From the IMG/VR virus record IMGVR_UViG_3300044733_003647, positions 92,658 through 156,657 of that record: a stretch of DNA of 64,000 nt, one strand, 5' to 3'. Below the pieces are notes generated by a model. It did no database searches. It saw nothing but the letters and a program-made list of their open reading frames with translations, and was not told the DNA's origin. The DNA is from a virus. The translations under genes were made by a program, and so were the position numbers. This document shows, piece by piece, positions 30,525 to 37,060 of this stretch (the stretch's first letter is position 1; each line of letters opens with the position of its first letter).

Positions 30525-30553
30525 TTGACAAACAAACAAAACGCCTATATAAT
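30525..30553 (+). promoter_or_regulatory. sigma70 promoter of leader/tRNA array
   Basis: TTGACA-17 nt-TATAAT. Confidence 0.85.
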
Positions 30554-30584
30554 ACAAACATTGTTAAATTTTTTAGGAAGAATC

Positions 30585-30689
30585 GTGTCTCTCATACATA
30601 AACCCTTTAGTTTGCAGCCAGAGTATCGCACAATTAATTGTGCCGATGCGTCATGGCCGACCGGGTTTTGTGTAGAAAAGGATTGTTAA
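30585..30689 (+). CDS. Putative attenuator leader peptide (34 aa, all 20 amino acids): MSLIHKPFSLQPEYRTINCADASWPTGFCVEKDC
   Basis: AGGAAG SD then GTG start; 27 consecutive non-repeating codons; overlaps antiterminator strand. Confidence 0.75.
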   Translation: MSLIHKPFSLQPEYRTINCADASWPTGFCVEKDC

Positions 30690-30726
30690 GAACTAAGTTC
30701 TAAAAAAGACTCCAAACACAAGACCC
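30663..30726 (+). promoter_or_regulatory. Antiterminator helix
   Basis: GGGTTTTGTGT (30663-30673) pairs with ACACAAGACCC (30716-30726), which includes the terminator 5' arm. Confidence 0.72.
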
Positions 30727-30752
30727 TTAGACTAAAACTCTAAGGGTTTTTT
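30721..30752 (+). terminator. Rho-independent terminator (attenuator)
   Basis: ACCCTTAGA-ctaaaac-TCTAAGGGT followed by T-run; extendable via CCAAACA/TGTTTGG. Confidence 0.85.
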
Positions 30753-30758
30753 GTTTGG

Positions 30759-30829
30759 TGTTGCGATAAAACAACACACTGGTTGACAGGTCATTGAATC
30801 TGTCATACAATACACTTTGTTCTTTAAAA
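30759..30829 (+). promoter_or_regulatory. Promoter with TGTTG-N8-CAACA palindrome and boxA-like site
   Basis: TGTTG-N8-CAACA, TTGACA-17-TACAAT, TGTTCTTTAAAA (30818-30829). Confidence 0.7.
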
Positions 30830-30848: not shown

Positions 30849-30922
30849 TCCCGGATTGTGTAGTGGTAGCACAGCAGACTTTGACTCTGTTAGTATAAGT
30901 TCGATTCTTATTCCGGGTGCCA
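30849..30922 (+). tRNA. tRNA-Gln (TTG)
   Basis: Cloverleaf, CT-TTG-AC loop, CCA. Confidence 0.9.
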
Positions 30923-31127
30923 TAAGTATGATAATTAAGTTGTCGGATGTGTGAAAGCAAGAGCCTCGAAATTCTTGTAAGTTGGACCTAATTAGTCTAG
31001 TAGCAAACAAGTAACACTATCACTGACGGATCCTAAGAGTAGAAATACTCATAAGCACAGGCGCTGATAAATTGTGCATAATGCTTCCAATGTTGTGATG
31101 GAAGAACTTAATTATCATTCTTATGGC
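30919..31127 (+). ncRNA. Stem-enclosed structured RNA 1
   Basis: 23-bp terminal inverted repeat (1 mismatch) 30919-30941/31105-31127 with internal hairpins. Confidence 0.6.
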
Positions 31128-31141
31128 AAAGGAGATATGCA

Positions 31142-31600
31142 ATGAAAAAAATTGTATTGTCTATATTATTGTCTTTACCTTTATTTGCTCATGCATGTAA
31201 AGGTTATGTGATAGGATTTAAAGGTTTGAATGATTCATTTAATTCTGTTGCATTTCAGAAATACTCAAATCGTTTAGGTTATTGTGGTAAATCTTTTTCT
31301 TGGTTTCAAGATAGAGAAGCATTACAATACATTCAAACACTAAAGAAACCTTATCGCCTTTATGGTTTCAGTAGAGGCGCACAGACAGTTTCAGATGTGT
31401 TAAAACAAACGAAAAGAAAACCTGAGTATGTCGTGACCATTGGTGCTTACAAAACTGCGAATGTTAATTTTGATGAGTACGATATACGTTATGATAATTT
31501 TTTTGACCATTCTGGAGTAGGTCAGAAAAGCCCAGGAGTATTTTTCAATGTGTCTCATGCAGACATAGAGAAAGAAGTTAGTGAATTTATAATAGAATAA
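31142..31600 (+). CDS. Secreted alpha/beta-hydrolase-like protein
   Basis: Signal peptide (..LPLFAHA), GFSRGA nucleophile elbow, late His (SHAD). Confidence 0.65.
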   Translation: MKKIVLSILLSLPLFAHACKGYVIGFKGLNDSFNSVAFQKYSNRLGYCGKSFSWFQDREALQYIQTLKKPYRLYGFSRGAQTVSDVLKQTKRKPEYVVTIGAYKTANVNFDEYDIRYDNFFDHSGVGQKSPGVFFNVSHADIEKEVSEFIIE

Positions 31601-31601
31601 T

Positions 31602-31693
31602 GGAAGCGTGCCAGAGTCCGGTTTATTGGAACAGTCTTGAAAACTGTCGATCTAGAAATAGGTCCGTGAGTTCGAATCTCACCGCTTCCACCA
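31602..31693 (+). tRNA. tRNA-Ser (TGA)
   Basis: Class II cloverleaf, CT-TGA-AA, CCA. Confidence 0.9.
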
Positions 31694-31696
31694 ATT

Positions 31697-31770
31697 CAGG
31701 GTATATGATAGTGGCAGTCGCCGAGGTTTGGAACCTTGTAGTGCAAGTTCGATTCTTGCTACCCTGACCA
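31697..31770 (+). tRNA. tRNA-Pro (TGG)
   Basis: TT-TGG-AA loop, CCA. Confidence 0.85.
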
Positions 31771-31780
31771 CAAAGATTTC

Positions 31781-31870
31781 GGAGAGTGGGCAGGATGGTA
31801 ATGCAGCGGATTGCTAATCCGTAGATCGTGTAACAGCGGTCAGTGGGTTCGACTCCCACACTCTCCACCA
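31781..31870 (+). tRNA. tRNA-Ser (GCT)
   Basis: Class II cloverleaf, TT-GCT-AA, CCA. Confidence 0.9.
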
Positions 31871-31872
31871 AT

Positions 31873-31963
31873 ACCTCTGTAGTTTAATGGTAAAACAGCG
31901 GATTTATACCCCGTAGCGCCAGATAAGCGGCTGATGTGAGTTCGATTCTCACCAGAGGTACCA
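31873..31963 (+). tRNA. tRNA with TAT anticodon (Ile) and long variable arm
   Basis: ACCTCTG/CAGAGGT acceptor, TT-TAT-AC loop, ~20-nt V arm, CCA. Confidence 0.75.
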
Positions 31964-31969
31964 ATTTAT

Positions 31970-32045
31970 GTGGGTGTGACCCGAAAGGCTAGGGAACGGA
32001 TTGCAAATCCGTTTTATGCAGGTTCGATTCCTGTCACCCACTCCA
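31970..32045 (+). tRNA. tRNA-Cys (GCA)
   Basis: TT-GCA-AA loop, U73, CCA. Confidence 0.9.
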
Positions 32046-32072
32046 GTTCATTCGCCATTCGCGAATAGAGAA

Positions 32073-32161
32073 TGTTGTTAAAAAACAACAGTATGGTTGA
32101 CAGATTCGGTAGTTCTGTTACAATACATTCATACGTTGAGAAATCAACATGTTCTTTAAAA
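32073..32161 (+). promoter_or_regulatory. Second palindrome-bearing promoter with boxB/boxA-like leader
   Basis: TGTTG-N8-CAACA, TTGACA-16-TACAAT, GTTGA-GAAA-TCAAC hairpin, TGTTCTTTAAAA. Confidence 0.72.
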
Positions 32162-32167
32162 ATTTAC

Positions 32168-32256
32168 GCGAGTGTGGTGGAACGGTATACACAGCAGACT
32201 TAAAATCTGCCAGGACCGCAAGGTCCTTGAGGGTTCGAATCCCTCCACTCGCACCA
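32168..32256 (+). tRNA. tRNA-Leu (TAA)
   Basis: Class II, CT-TAA-AA, CCA. Confidence 0.92.
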
Positions 32257-32258
32257 AT

Positions 32259-32334
32259 GCACCTATCGTCTAACGGTTAGGACGGCGCCCTTTCAAGGCG
32301 CAAACGAGGGGTTCGATTCCCCCTAGGTGTACCA
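32259..32334 (+). tRNA. tRNA-Glu (TTC)
   Basis: CT-TTC-AA, CCA. Confidence 0.92.
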
Positions 32335-32481
32335 TTTGTTTAGTGTTATCAAGGTATCGTGTATGGACGCATACACTATTCGGGCTCAACCGGCCGGGAA
32401 CGGGTCCTGATATAACTGCATCGGCTTTGAAGAGGAAGCACCTCAATTCTAAATTTGCACGATAACACTAAACAAATGGTA
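32330..32481 (+). ncRNA. Stem-enclosed structured RNA 2
   Basis: Perfect 21-bp inverted repeat 32330-32350/32461-32481. Confidence 0.6.
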
Positions 32482-32487
32482 ATTTAT

Positions 32488-32561
32488 GGGGGTATAACTT
32501 AGTGGTAAAGTATCCGGCTTTTAACCGGAAAACCAGAGTTCAATTCTCTGTGCCCCTACCA
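32488..32561 (+). tRNA. tRNA-Lys (TTT)
   Basis: CT-TTT-AA, CCA. Confidence 0.9.
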
Positions 32562-32672
32562 TATAAAAACACATTGTCATGCAGCACAGCCGAATCTGTG
32601 TGTAACTCCTAGGCGTAACCTATTGTGAGAAATAGGGGAGTGCAATTCTCATCAGTGTGTTTCTATATGGTA
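32557..32672 (+). ncRNA. Stem-enclosed structured RNA 3
   Basis: ~20-bp imperfect inverted repeat 32557-32576/32653-32672. Confidence 0.55.
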
Positions 32673-32674
32673 AA

Positions 32675-32828
32675 TTATTTGTTGAAAGCCTGACAGAAAG
32701 TGCTTAACCAGCGGCCTAACTCTCAAGGTAATACCAACCCTTGCACTTATTGCTGTGGTGGCAATCGCTTCCAAGGGGACCACTTTATTACTAGGTCTTA
32801 AACAGTAGAGAGTGCTTTCAACAAATAA
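32675..32828 (+). ncRNA. Stem-enclosed structured RNA 4
   Basis: Perfect 15-bp inverted repeat TTATTTGTTGAAAGC/GCTTTCAACAAATAA. Confidence 0.55.
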
Positions 32829-32900
32829 AAAGGGAGAATCGCCGCGAGGCGTATTCTTAAACGACCTGTAGAACTCCCAGGCGTCCCGTAGTTAGTTTTT

Positions 32901-32993
32901 GGAGGTCTTGATGCTAAGGCGTGTGCATCACCGGACTGTAAATCCGGTCCCTCGTGGTAAACATTCGCGGTTCGACTCCGTGGACCTCCACCA
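32901..32993 (+). tRNA. tRNA-Tyr (GTA), atypical D arm
   Basis: CT-GTA-AA, long V region, 5-bp D stem GATGC/GCATC, CCA. Confidence 0.82.
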
Positions 32994-33011
32994 ATTTAAT
33001 AGGAGAGTACT

Positions 33012-33215
33012 ATGTTAATTTCAGAAATATCAAATTATACCACTTGGGTGGGTGATATTAGAAAAACAATAGTAAGAGAAATTTTTAAATATGATGAGGG
33101 TAATGATGTAATAGTTGTAACAGTTCATGGTCAAGAATTTGCACAACTGTATAGTGAAAAAGGAAAAGAAGTTTCACAAGATAATAAAGGAACGAATATA
33201 GATATTCGTGCTTAA
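33012..33215 (+). CDS. Hypothetical protein
   Basis: AGGAG SD; 67 aa inside tRNA array. Confidence 0.6.
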   Translation: MLISEISNYTTWVGDIRKTIVREIFKYDEGNDVIVVTVHGQEFAQLYSEKGKEVSQDNKGTNIDIRA

Positions 33216-33220
33216 GATTT

Positions 33221-33295
33221 GGTCTCAAAGTGTTCATGGACGCACGTATGCCTGTCACGCATAAAGAAGGGGATCGTTACCCCTTGGGACCGCCA
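33221..33295 (+). tRNA. tRNA-Asp (GTC), atypical T loop
   Basis: CT-GTC-AC, G73, T loop ATCGTTA. Confidence 0.82.
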
Positions 33296-33297
33296 GA

Positions 33298-33500
33298 ACG
33301 TTCTGTCTAATCAACAGATAGTCTGACCCGGACGATGAGAAGTGGTGTGATATCCACGGGTGGTACACTTTAAACCGAAAGTGCGTTGGCAATACGATAA
33401 CGGTCCCTGTCGGGAAGCGGGTGGAAGGTATGCGTGATGGATATGAGAGACAACCAACTAAATCCTGATGTACTACAATTACCGCCGGGGGACGCAGAGC
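33298..33500 (+). ncRNA. GC-rich multibranch structured RNA 5
   Basis: No credible ORF; several local stems (CACTTT/AAAGTG, GTCCC/GGGAC, GCGG/CCGC). Confidence 0.5.
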
Positions 33501-33591
33501 ATATTGAAACACATTCGCCTTCCCATGGTGGGAAGGTCCCGTAAAGCTGTCCTAGGCGGTGGGGTAGTTGCAAGAAGTGTGTTTCAATATG
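33500..33591 (+). ncRNA. Stem-enclosed structured RNA 6
   Basis: 14-bp inverted repeat CATATTGAAACACA/TGTGTTTCAATATG. Confidence 0.55.
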
Positions 33592-33725
33592 GTGTCTGCA
33601 AACTGCTCACTTGTTGAACCTATAATTTACTAGACGGGTGACTAGGATGGTTCGCAACCTTAAAGGTATGATCCGTACAGCGTTAACGGACAGTCTAGTA
33701 AGTCGGATATGAGCACCGACCACCA
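33591..33725 (+). ncRNA. Rod-like RNA 7 ending in ACCA
   Basis: Nested pairings GGTG/CACC, TGCTCA/TGAGCA, TTACTAGAC/GTCTAGTAA. Confidence 0.5.
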
Positions 33726-33737
33726 TTTTATTTTTAT

Positions 33738-34032: not shown

Positions 34033-34107
34033 GGTACTATGACGTAGACGGATGCGTACCGGTTTCATAAGCCGAGGAGATTGGATCGTTACCAATTAGT
34101 ACCACCA
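34033..34107 (+). tRNA. tRNA-Met (CAT), atypical T loop
   Basis: TT-CAT-AA, T loop ATCGTTA, CCA. Confidence 0.78.
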
Positions 34108-34344: not shown

Positions 34345-34370
34345 TAAGTAAAATAAGAAAGGTGATTGAT

Positions 34371-34859
34371 ATGAAAAATTTCAATTTGCAAGAAGTAAAA
34401 GAATTTGTCTTGAATCAAGGACCCGATACGAAAGTTTATTTGGGTGCAGACTCAGAACGTATTCGTGTTAATGGTGTTTGGTATGCAGATTATGCTCTTG
34501 CAGTTGTAGTTCATATCGATGGTCGCCATGGTTGTAAAATCTTTGGTTATGTTGAGAGAGAACTGGATTACGATCATAAGAAAAGTAAACCAGCAATGCG
34601 TCTGATGACTGAAGTTTATAAAGTGTCTGAATTGTTCCAAAGTTTGGCTGATGTGTTGGAAGACCGTCATGTTGAAGTTCACTTAGACCTTAATAAGTCT
34701 GATGAATACGGAAGTTCATGCGTTGTACAACAAGCAATTGGTTATATCAAAGGTACATGTAACATGACACCTATGGTTAAACCAGATGCACCAGCTGCTT
34801 CGTTCTGTGCAGACCGATTAAAACGGATTCTTACAGAACAAGTAACTGTAACATGTTAA
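34371..34859 (+). CDS. RNase H-like YkuK (DUF458) family protein
   Basis: YLGADSE, RLMTEV, EVHLDLN, KPDAPAASFCADR. Confidence 0.8.
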   Translation: MKNFNLQEVKEFVLNQGPDTKVYLGADSERIRVNGVWYADYALAVVVHIDGRHGCKIFGYVERELDYDHKKSKPAMRLMTEVYKVSELFQSLADVLEDRHVEVHLDLNKSDEYGSSCVVQQAIGYIKGTCNMTPMVKPDAPAASFCADRLKRILTEQVTVTC

Positions 34860-35493: not shown

Positions 35494-36081
35494 ATGCCAG
35501 CAGTTTTCTTAGTGAGTGATACACATTTTGGCCATGCTGGAGTGTGTAGGTTTATGCGCGCTGATGGTGTGACTAAACTTCGACCATGGGATAATCCTGA
35601 AGAAATGGATGAAGAAATGGTGAAACGTTGGAACGAAACAGTTCGGCGAAATGATAAAGTATATCATCTTGGTGATGTTGTTATCAATCGCAAGTCACTT
35701 AATATTATGCGCCGATTAAACGGTGATAAAGTATTAATTCGTGGTAACCATGACATTTTTAAACTTGAAGATTACACAAAATATTTTAGAGACATTCGTG
35801 GTTATCATGTGATGAACGGAATGATTCTGTCTCATATTCCGGTACATGAAGAAAGTCTAGGTCGTTTTGGTGTTAATATTCATGGTCATTTACATGCCAA
35901 TCGTGTGCTTCGTACAGTGAAAACTTTCACTGTGGAAGAACCTGTGATTGATTCACGTTACCATTGTGTTTGTGTTGAACAAACTGATTTTAGACCTATT
36001 CTTTTTGAAGACGTTATGAAGAAAATAAAAGAAGAAGGTGGTGAAATTGGTTTTCGCAATGGTAATGGTCCAACTATGTGA
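35494..36081 (+). CDS. Calcineurin-like metallophosphoesterase
   Basis: SDTHFGH, HLGD, GNHD, HGHLH. Confidence 0.9.
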   Translation: MPAVFLVSDTHFGHAGVCRFMRADGVTKLRPWDNPEEMDEEMVKRWNETVRRNDKVYHLGDVVINRKSLNIMRRLNGDKVLIRGNHDIFKLEDYTKYFRDIRGYHVMNGMILSHIPVHEESLGRFGVNIHGHLHANRVLRTVKTFTVEEPVIDSRYHCVCVEQTDFRPILFEDVMKKIKEEGGEIGFRNGNGPTM

Positions 36082-36987: not shown

Positions 36988-37060
36988 GGCGGGTTGGTGA
37001 AACAGTATCACAGTGGGCTCATAATCCTCAGTTCCGGTGCAACTCCGTGACCCGCAACCA
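36988..37060 (+). tRNA. tRNA-Met (CAT), initiator-like
   Basis: 1:72 mismatch, GGG in anticodon stem, CT-CAT-AA, CCA. Confidence 0.75.

What the first reader, a model, noticed from the sequence alone, without database searches (positions are those of the whole stretch)
30919..33591. Family of stem-enclosed ncRNA cassettes interleaved with tRNAs, three of which pair over the upstream tRNA's CCA end
Seen: five 90-210 nt structured inserts, each closed by a 14-23 bp AT-rich inverted repeat (30919-31127, 32330-32481, 32557-32672, 32675-32828, 33500-33591). In three cases (after Gln, Glu, Lys) the 5' arm begins in the tRNA's own NCCA, so the 3' arm (..ATGGC/..ATGGTA) can sequester the acceptor end in the precursor. 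Two cassettes share near-identical arms (CATATAAAAACACATT vs CATATTGAAACACATT) but have unrelated interiors. Inference: a modular carrier stem, possibly an RNase III-type substrate, releases diverse small RNAs (decoys, antitoxin mimics or guides) or times tRNA maturation.
Basis: partly seen in the sequence, partly recalled or inferred. Interest (0 to 1): 0.72.

Follow-up and report, generated by a model that had tools for sequence, protein, structure and literature searches.

The report
Stem-clamped RNA cassettes in phage tRNA operon
Five non-tRNA RNA modules, each closed by a long AU-rich helix that in three cases starts on the CCA end of the preceding tRNA, sit in the tRNA operon of an uncultured T4-like lake phage; two belong to a large uncatalogued virus-only hairpin family with swappable inserts, one is a widespread new structured RNA, and what they do after being cut out is unknown.

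Summary
All five inverted repeats are at the stated coordinates, and four perfect repeats of 14 nt or more occur where 0.007 is expected. Three begin at position 72/73 plus CCA of tRNA-Gln, tRNA-Glu and tRNA-Lys.

The five are not one family:
- **C3 and C5** carry a conserved 18-bp "type-A" clamp. It occurs in at least 120 viral contigs, always in tRNA arrays, and once in 185,579 prokaryote genomes. It frames at least 135 unrelated inserts, has fixed polarity, a conserved A·C mismatch and U·G wobble, and compensatory changes.
- **C2** is a conserved RNA of about 150 nt. It is absent from Rfam, occurs in at least 130 viral loci, and 35 of its 37 pairs covary. Its clamp is simply its P1 helix.
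- **C1** has a partly conserved insert with unique arms.
- **C4** is an orphan.

Close relatives lack C3, C4 and C5, or hold another cassette in the same slot.

Best reading: these are co-transcribed RNA modules whose clamp insulates them and marks where a host endonuclease frees the tRNA and a small RNA. RNase III is the most likely enzyme and RNase E or RNase P are alternatives. No RNA data could be obtained, so the enzyme, the release of discrete RNAs and the cargo function are all inferred.

The same family was noted earlier by this scan on other phage genomes. I found no paper describing it.

The parts
30783..30811 (+). sigma-70-like promoter (11/12) driving tRNA-Gln, C1, ORF 31142 and the tRNAs after it
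30849..30922 (+). tRNA-Gln(UUG); its last five bases are the start of the C1 clamp
30918..31128 (+). C1: 24-bp clamp with one mismatch and a 163-nt insert. Arms unique among 2.8 Mb of related loci. The 5' part of the insert is conserved in L169, L044 and L162 inside other arms. The ribosome-binding site of ORF 31142 follows directly.
32097..32124 (+). sigma-70-like promoter (11/12) driving the array that holds C2-C5
32259..32334 (+). tRNA-Glu(UUC); its U72-A73-CCA opens the C2 clamp
32330..32481 (+). C2: perfect 21-bp clamp, which is the P1 helix of a conserved ~150-nt structured RNA. The RNA has a hairpin with a GACG loop, two further hairpins and conserved single-stranded runs.
32488..32561 (+). 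tRNA-Lys(UUU); its U72-A73-CCA opens the C3 clamp
32557..32672 (+). C3: type-A clamp with the family's A.C mismatch (32566/32663) and U.G wobble (32574/32655) and a 76-nt insert. The insert has one homologue (L138, 91%) inside variant arms. Absent from close relatives L002 and L001.
32675..32828 (+). C4: perfect 15-bp clamp, not on a CCA end. Arms and insert have no relative in the loci fetched. Absent from L002 and L001.
33296..33499 (+). G1: conserved 204-nt non-coding RNA after tRNA-Asp, on whose 3' end the C5 clamp starts. This pairing of G1 with a type-A cassette recurs in L204 and L206.
33500..33591 (+). C5: type-A clamp, a compensated variant with G-C in place of A.C, and a 60-nt, 60% G+C insert. 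One homologue (L078, 78%). Absent from L002, L005 and L001.

Best explanation
The five elements are RNA modules transcribed with the tRNAs from the two strong + strand promoters. Each module is closed by an RNA helix formed by its own two ends. The helix does two jobs. First, it keeps a foreign structured RNA folded as its own domain inside a polycistronic tRNA precursor. Second, it marks the cut that separates the tRNA from the module. The most likely path (inferred) has four steps. (1) The host's double-strand-specific RNase III cuts near the middle of the 18-24-bp helix. (2) The lower half, made only of A-U pairs and weakened in the type-A clamp by an A.C mismatch, falls apart. (3) The short 3' trailer left on the tRNA is trimmed back to CCA by the usual exonucleases. 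(4) The G/C-containing upper half stays as a protective terminal stem on the released small RNA. RNase E cutting in the AU-rich run just after CCA, and RNase P at the next tRNA, are alternative or additional cutters. C3 and C5 use a clamp of nearly fixed sequence that phages share and that frames hundreds of different inserts. The fixed arms probably also serve as short homologies through which inserts are exchanged between co-infecting phages. C2 is a separate, widely conserved structured RNA whose P1 helix has here grown onto the CCA of tRNA-Glu. What the released RNAs do is not known.
For: Co-transcription: promoters at 30783 and 32097, with no terminator inside the array.

RNA-level helix:
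- C2 family, 61 sequences: 96.7% of cells paired against 67% in shuffles; 35 of 37 pairs change on both sides; covariation score 0.74 against 0.21 shuffled and <=0.13 slid.
- Type-A clamp, 195 unique cassettes: variant bases at helix positions 5, 6, 13 and 17 are compensated, and position 6 shows 0 mismatches among 29 variants.
- G.U outnumbers A.C 34:14 in the other clamps when both are scored alike.
- Polarity relative to the tRNAs is fixed: A.C in 142 and U.G in 160 of 195 cassettes, with the mirrored form essentially absent.

Restriction to tRNA operons:
- Exact arms occur in >=120 viral contigs, each with tRNAs (median 19 per locus).
- 98 of 128 cassettes start on a CCA.
- In the phage's own genome the arms occur only at C3 and C5.
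- One hit in 185,579 prokaryote genomes.

Modularity and exchange:
- 135 insert families among 195 cassettes.
- The same insert follows different tRNAs in different phages.
- At least five cassette types occupy the slot after tRNA-Glu.
- L002 and L001 lack C3, C4 and C5, and L005 has a type-A cassette where the window has C1.

Fold and nuclease source:
- The precursor fold keeps the cloverleaf, with the clamp abutting it.
- The phage encodes no RNase III, so any such cut is made by the host.
Against: - Transcript ends, discrete products and the enzyme are all inferred.
- The type-A clamp does not reproduce the canonical E. coli distal-box pair order described in PMC1540722, and the host is unknown.
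- RNase III alone does not explain why both type-A arms are conserved in sequence, because C2's P1 helix covaries freely.
- The inserts alone do not fold better than shuffled sequence (z = -0.3 to -1.7). Structure in the C3, C4 and C5 inserts is therefore unproven, and C4 has no relative at all.
- In 51 of 195 relatives the last GG of the clamp is G1G2 of the next tRNA, so the CCA/UGG pairs compete with tRNA folding.
Confidence: 0.6

Rival explanations
1. The type-A cassettes are miniature inverted-repeat DNA transposons (MITE-like selfish DNA) that target tRNA 3' ends. The RNA hairpin is only a by-product, tolerated because it is cut out.
For: Terminal inverted repeats; presence/absence differences between close relatives; the same arms plus insert behind different tRNAs; many copies per array in some phages.
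Against: No target-site duplication at the filled versus empty sites. One fixed orientation in 195 of 195 cassettes. Compensatory changes and a G.U bias. No Y1, DDE_3 or rve transposase and no reverse transcriptase in a 94%-complete genome. Never found outside tRNA arrays.
Confidence: 0.12
2. The clamp is a regulatory device. By pairing NCCA it blocks aminoacylation, RNase P contact or attack on the 3' end until a controlled cut is made, so it times or protects maturation of particular tRNAs (Gln, Glu, Lys). The insert is only a spacer.
For: NCCA is fully paired in the predicted precursors. The clamp base opposite the discriminator follows it, C opposite G73 of tRNA-Gln and U opposite A73 of tRNA-Glu and tRNA-Lys. 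Cassettes are concentrated after Lys, Gln and Glu.
Against: Cassettes also follow non-tRNA RNAs and other cassettes, where they still begin with an NCCA-like start. C4 and C5 touch no tRNA. The array order is inherited, so the tRNA bias is not a set of independent events. In 51 of 195 cassettes the pairing GG belongs to the next tRNA.
Confidence: 0.12
3. The inserts are functionless filler. Any insertion into a tRNA precursor survives only if it is self-contained, so closing stems are what selection leaves behind. The shared arms reflect common descent and gene conversion.
For: 102 of 135 insert families are singletons. No shared motif among inserts. Inserts alone fold no better than shuffled sequence. 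L027 keeps the C2 clamp with the insert deleted.
Against: C2 is conserved with strong covariation and invariant single-stranded runs across phages ranging from about 150 kb to contigs of about 350 kb. Insert G+C is 47% against 38% for the genome. Several small insert families show compensatory changes. The C1 insert domain is conserved inside different arms.
Confidence: 0.12
4. The cassettes are members of a known stem-closed RNA class: retron msr/msd, bacterial Y RNA (YrlA), or T4 species 1/2 RNAs.
For: End-to-end pairing as in retron a1/a2 repeats and Y RNA stems. T4 also keeps two small stable RNAs in its tRNA cluster.
Against: No reverse transcriptase and no Ro/TROVE protein in the genome. 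No Rfam match. T4 rnaC and rnaD are tRNA-like, with a T arm or an ACCA-type end, and lack an AU-rich clamp. Only 14 of 195 inserts have a T-arm-like motif.
Confidence: 0.03

Closest known systems
RNase III processing stalks of polycistronic stable RNA and phage transcripts (pre-16S/23S rRNA stems; phage T7 R1.1-type sites; PMC1540722)
   Same: A long helix formed by sequences flanking an RNA inside a multi-gene precursor. The length (18-24 bp) suits RNase III. A mismatch or wobble sits inside the helix, as in the T7 sites.
   Different: Here one helix of nearly fixed sequence frames hundreds of different small inserts and starts on a tRNA's CCA. Cleavage is not shown, and the E. coli box rules are not clearly met.
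Intervening sequences (IVS) of bacterial 23S rRNA, excised by RNase III without re-ligation (established knowledge)
   Same: Extended hairpins with a conserved stem and a variable top, sporadically present among close relatives, inserted into a stable-RNA gene cluster and removed from the precursor.
   Different: An IVS replaces a loop inside the rRNA. These cassettes sit between genes, at tRNA 3' ends, and some inserts (C2) are themselves conserved RNAs.
Phage T4 small stable RNAs rnaC and rnaD (species 1 and 2) in the tRNA cluster
   Same: Non-tRNA stable RNAs of unknown function, co-transcribed with the tRNAs of a T4-type phage.
   Different: The T4 RNAs are tRNA-like and have no AU-rich clamp over the upstream CCA. 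No sequence similarity.
PeSL mobile regulatory cassettes of T4-type phages (PMC2839356, PMC4122927)
   Same: Short conserved motifs that flank variable inserts and are thought to drive modular shuffling between T4-type genomes by recombination.
   Different: PeSLs are promoter-terminator motifs flanking protein genes as direct repeats. Here the conserved motifs are inverted, form an RNA helix and flank small RNAs.
tRNA-linked hairpin RNAs of murine gammaherpesvirus 68 (tRNA-miRNA chimeras; from my own knowledge, not checked here)
   Same: A viral tRNA(-like) is followed directly by a stem-loop RNA that is freed by tRNA 3'-end processing.
   Different: That system is eukaryotic, uses RNA polymerase III and tRNase Z, and its hairpins feed the miRNA pathway.

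Membership tests
Any Rfam 15 family | Match to a covariance model | tested here: not met
   No match over any cassette at gathering score or at E <= 5. The same holds in four related loci.
RNase III substrate | Uninterrupted or nearly uninterrupted dsRNA of about two helical turns | tested here: met
   Clamps of 15-24 bp. The type-A clamp has 18 conserved pairs, often extended by 1-4 more.
RNase III substrate | E. coli proximal/distal box content (canonical UA/UG distal box, no G-C at key proximal-box positions) | tested here: inconclusive
   The lower clamp is all A-U and a U.G wobble is conserved, but its neighbours are in the opposite order to the canonical box as described in PMC1540722. 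The host enzyme is unknown.
RNase III substrate | Cleavage by RNase III | not testable with these tools
   No RNA data.
MITE / transposon | Terminal inverted repeats | tested here: met
MITE / transposon | Target-site duplication; insertion in either orientation; a partner transposase | tested here: not met
   No duplication at the filled versus empty sites. One orientation in 195 of 195 cassettes. No Y1, DDE_3 or rve domain.
Retron msr/msd | Adjacent reverse transcriptase | tested here: not met
   No RVT_1 domain in the 94%-complete genome.
Bacterial Y RNA (YrlA) | Ro/TROVE partner and a tRNA-like domain on a long stem | tested here: not met
   No TROVE domain. The weak YrlA matches fall on true tRNAs only. 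A T-arm-like motif occurs in 14 of 195 inserts.
T4 rnaC/rnaD | Sequence or fold similarity to the T4 RNAs | tested here: not met
   The T4 RNAs are tRNA-like and have no clamp.
Type-A clamp family (defined here) | 18-bp helix of the consensus found at window 32559-32575 / 32654-32670, on the tRNA strand, inside a tRNA array | tested here: met
   C3 and C5 meet it. C1, C2 and C4 do not.
C2-type RNA (defined here) | P1 helix plus a GACG-loop hairpin plus two hairpins, with conserved single-stranded runs | tested here: met
   C2 aligns throughout with 60 other members.

The most novel reading that the evidence does not exclude
The type-A clamp is a phage-specific platform for small RNAs, a kind of 'RNA integron'. 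One conserved helix acts both as the excision signal in the transcript and as the recombination handle in the DNA. This lets lake phages, from 150-kb T4-likes to those on contigs of over 300 kb, acquire, express and trade a very large pool of small RNAs. These RNAs would act in host takeover or counter-defence, for instance as decoys or sponges for tRNA-targeting or RNA-guided host systems.
Probability: 0.2. Interest if true: 0.85.

Novelty: new variant of a known kind. Interest (0 to 1): 0.66.

Why it matters
Phage tRNA arrays are usually read only as a supply of tRNAs. These arrays also carry a large, uncatalogued set of small RNAs packaged in a standard helix. One of them (C2) is conserved across very different uncultured phages, with covariation as strong as in curated RNA families.

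If the clamp is a shared excision and exchange signal, it gives a simple handle for finding hundreds of phage small RNAs in metagenomes. It would also be a natural design for expressing RNAs from tRNA operons. The enrichment after tRNA-Lys, tRNA-Gln and tRNA-Glu suggests a link to the fight over tRNAs between phage and host, but that link is untested.

Tried and rejected
- **GenBank phages:** megablast and blastn found nothing beyond tRNA matches.
- **Spacer-like origin of the inserts:** all extra matches were other cassettes with variant arms.
- **Antisense targets:** the conserved single-stranded runs of C1, C2, C3 and C5 have no target in the phage's own genome.
- **Shared insert motif:** none found. 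The CCUAGGCG motif shared by C3 and C5 is not kept in the C3 homologue.
- **Cognate nuclease:** the RNase H-like ORF in the array was found in only 27 of 77 pattern-found loci of at least 8 kb, which is inconclusive.
- **tRNA-derived inserts:** only about 7% have a T-arm-like motif.
- **Literature:** five searches and two targeted look-ups found no description of this family.
- **Coding reading:** the small ORFs at 32343-32465 and 33468-33617 have no ribosome-binding site, and variation in C2 is compensatory rather than codon-like.
Full report
**Setting.** The window comes from a 156.7-kb, 94%-complete, 38% G+C virus record. It encodes a T4-type DNA polymerase about 50% identical to those of cyanomyoviruses, plus a portal, a terminase and helicases. 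Twenty-eight tRNA genes lie on the + strand between 27279 and 36466. Strong sigma-70-like promoters at 30783 and 32097 point into the region of the finding, and no terminator lies inside it. The five elements are therefore expected to be transcribed together with the tRNAs. This is inferred from sequence; no RNA data were available.

**Observation.**
- Four perfect repeats of 14 nt or more with a 30-400 nt loop occur in 7.1 kb, against 0.007 expected from dinucleotide shuffles. None occurs in the remaining 57 kb.
- Three 5' arms begin four bases before the end of tRNA-Gln, tRNA-Glu and tRNA-Lys.
- When tRNA and cassette are folded together, the cloverleaf is kept and NCCA is paired into the clamp, which abuts the acceptor stem.
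- The good fold scores of the whole cassettes (z = -2.8 to -6.3) are due to the clamps. The inserts alone are no better than shuffled sequence.
- Rfam has no match, even at E <= 5.

**Relatives.**
- The RNase H-like ORF inside the array brought in 80 related loci out of 327 matches.
- A census of their inter-tRNA gaps found 181 strong stem-closed units. Of these, 103 start within the last five bases of a tRNA, mostly Glu, Gln and Lys.
- Close relatives differ by whole cassettes. L002 and L001 go straight from tRNA-Lys to the element before tRNA-Tyr, so they lack C3 and C4. They also lack C5 and the RNA after it.
- L005 has an 89-nt cassette of another kind exactly where the window has C1, and both are followed by the same ribosome-binding site.
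- The slot after tRNA-Glu holds at least five cassette types in different phages.

**The type-A clamp (C3, C5).** The arms of C3 (32559-32575 and 32654-32670) are the consensus of a large family.
These include contigs of 225-525 kb.
- *Context:* every such locus carries tRNAs. 98 of 128 cassettes start on the CCA of an annotated tRNA: Lys 72, Gln 18.
- *Specificity:* a shortened form of the arm pattern occurs once in one genome for each of 185,579 prokaryote species, on a 1.5-kb contig of a freshwater actinobacterial MAG. In the phage's own genome the arms occur only at C3 and C5.
- *Helix features:* when 195 unique cassettes are oriented by the tRNA strand, the helix has 18 conserved pairs. 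Position 7 (counted from 0 at the first C of CCA) is an A.C mismatch in 73%, G-C in 11% and A-U in 5%. Position 15 is a U.G wobble in 82%.
- *Polarity:* the mirrored arrangement is essentially absent, so polarity relative to transcription is fixed.
- *Covariation:* variant bases at positions 5, 6, 13 and 17 are compensated. C5 is one such compensated variant.
- *Inserts:* they fall into 135 families, 102 of them singletons, with no common motif and 47% G+C.
- *Mobility:* the same insert with its arms is found behind different tRNAs in different phages. The module has therefore moved or been exchanged.
- *Overlap with the next tRNA:* in 51 of 195 cassettes the last GG of the 3' arm is G1G2 of the next tRNA, or G-1 of tRNA-His.

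**C2 is something else.**
- Its insert is a conserved RNA. A pattern built from its invariant runs finds at least 119 further viral contigs, including several of 320-355 kb.
- Of 130 instances, 41 follow tRNA-Glu. Another 76 have no tRNA within 200 nt upstream, and they often lie among other structured RNAs.
- On 61 diverse members, 96.7% of cells are paired (67% in shuffles) and 35 of 37 pairs change on both sides. The covariation score is 0.74, against 0.21 in shuffles and at most 0.13 when partners are slid.
- Its 19-bp closing helix covaries freely across the family. In the window's lineage the helix simply begins on the CCA of tRNA-Glu. One relative keeps the clamp with the insert deleted.

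**C1 and C4.** The arms of C1 are unique, but the 5' part of its insert recurs in three loci inside different arms, with visibly compensated hairpins. C4 has no relative, in either arms or insert.

**Is it RNA or DNA?** The following points favour a helix selected in the + strand RNA over a DNA-level repeat:
- compensatory changes in the helices;
- a G.U excess over A.C of 34:14 in the non-type-A arms, when both are scored as mismatches;
- fixed polarity;
- restriction to transcribed tRNA operons;
- no target-site duplication;
- no transposase, reverse transcriptase or Ro protein in the genome.

**Mechanism.**
- *Shown:* co-linearity with tRNAs, an RNA-level helix, a modular family, and exchange between phages.
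- *Inferred:* the helix is the cutting site.

RNase III fits the length and double-stranded nature of the helix, and it would have to be the host's enzyme. However, the conserved pairs do not reproduce the E. coli box rules. RNase III also does not explain the sequence conservation of the type-A arms. An RNase E cut in the AU-rich run just after CCA, and RNase P at the following tRNA, remain open. I put RNase III at about 0.4 and RNase E at about 0.3. The conserved arms may persist because they double as recombination handles, as proposed for PeSL motifs in T4-type phages (PMC2839356, PMC4122927). This last idea is speculative.

**Known relatives and novelty.** The closest known devices are:
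- RNase III stalks of rRNA operons and T7 early transcripts;
- 23S rRNA intervening sequences;
- the T4 small RNAs rnaC and rnaD, which I checked and found to be tRNA-like and unclamped.

None of these is a family that these elements join. No paper describing them was found.

Earlier notes of this scan describe the same type-A family on other phage genomes and reach similar readings. Before reading those notes I had already established the family, its CCA anchoring and its diversity of inserts. The notes gave the IVS and T7 comparisons. New in this report:
- the split of the five cassettes into distinct classes;
- the C2 RNA family;
- the fixed polarity with its counts;
- the overlap with the next tRNA's 5' end;
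- the finding that the inserts alone are not thermodynamically unusual.

Noticed in passing
window 33296-33499: G1: a 204-nt G+C-rich non-coding RNA directly after tRNA-Asp, conserved in at least 48 related loci (75-93% identity). It has no match in Rfam or in GenBank phages. In L204 and L206 (the latter from a 345-kb contig) it is followed, as here, by a type-A cassette and then a C2-type RNA.
   Followed up: partly
window 33592-33737: R1: a 146-nt non-coding stretch between C5 and tRNA-Asn that ends in an ACCA-type 3' end. It has no relative in the loci fetched and is absent from L002, L005 and L001.
   Followed up: partly
window 32829-32900: X1: a 72-nt element with a G+C-rich hairpin directly before tRNA-Tyr, conserved in L002 (100%) and L001 (91%).
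   Followed up: no
window 34362-34859 and 35494-36081: An RNase H-like (PF04308, former DUF458) ORF and a calcineurin-type phosphoesterase ORF sit inside the tRNA array. The RNase H-like ORF has 327 relatives in viral contigs. Possible RNA-processing or repair enzymes; a link to the cassettes was not established.
   Followed up: partly
window 34033-34104 and 36988-37057: Two tRNA-like matches in Rfam (41.5 and 30.6 bits) that ARAGORN does not call. Possibly divergent or decaying tRNAs.
   Followed up: no
window 31873-31963: tRNA with anticodon UAU and a long variable arm (91 nt), conserved in the relatives' arrays.
   Followed up: no
L050 329-465 and 550-625: Between tandem type-A cassettes of a relative lie a degenerate tRNA-like piece (T arm, ending in AUCA rather than ACCA) and another stem-closed module with different arms. 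Cassettes that are not next to a called tRNA may follow decayed tRNAs.
   Followed up: partly
L201 (CAZQNP010000058.1, 1478 bp): The only prokaryote-genome hit to the type-A clamp is a tiny contig binned into a Candidatus Planktophila MAG. It is probably a mis-binned phage fragment and at most a weak host hint.
   Followed up: no
window 30525-30760: A perfect sigma-70-like promoter followed by a ~190-nt transcript ending in a strong terminator, conserved in 33 loci, just upstream of the tRNA promoter. This is the subject of another note of this scan.
   Followed up: no
window 31142-31600: A 152-aa ORF with a lipoprotein-like signal peptide lies between C1 and tRNA-Ser, so one transcript would carry a tRNA, a cassette, an mRNA and further tRNAs.
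   Followed up: no
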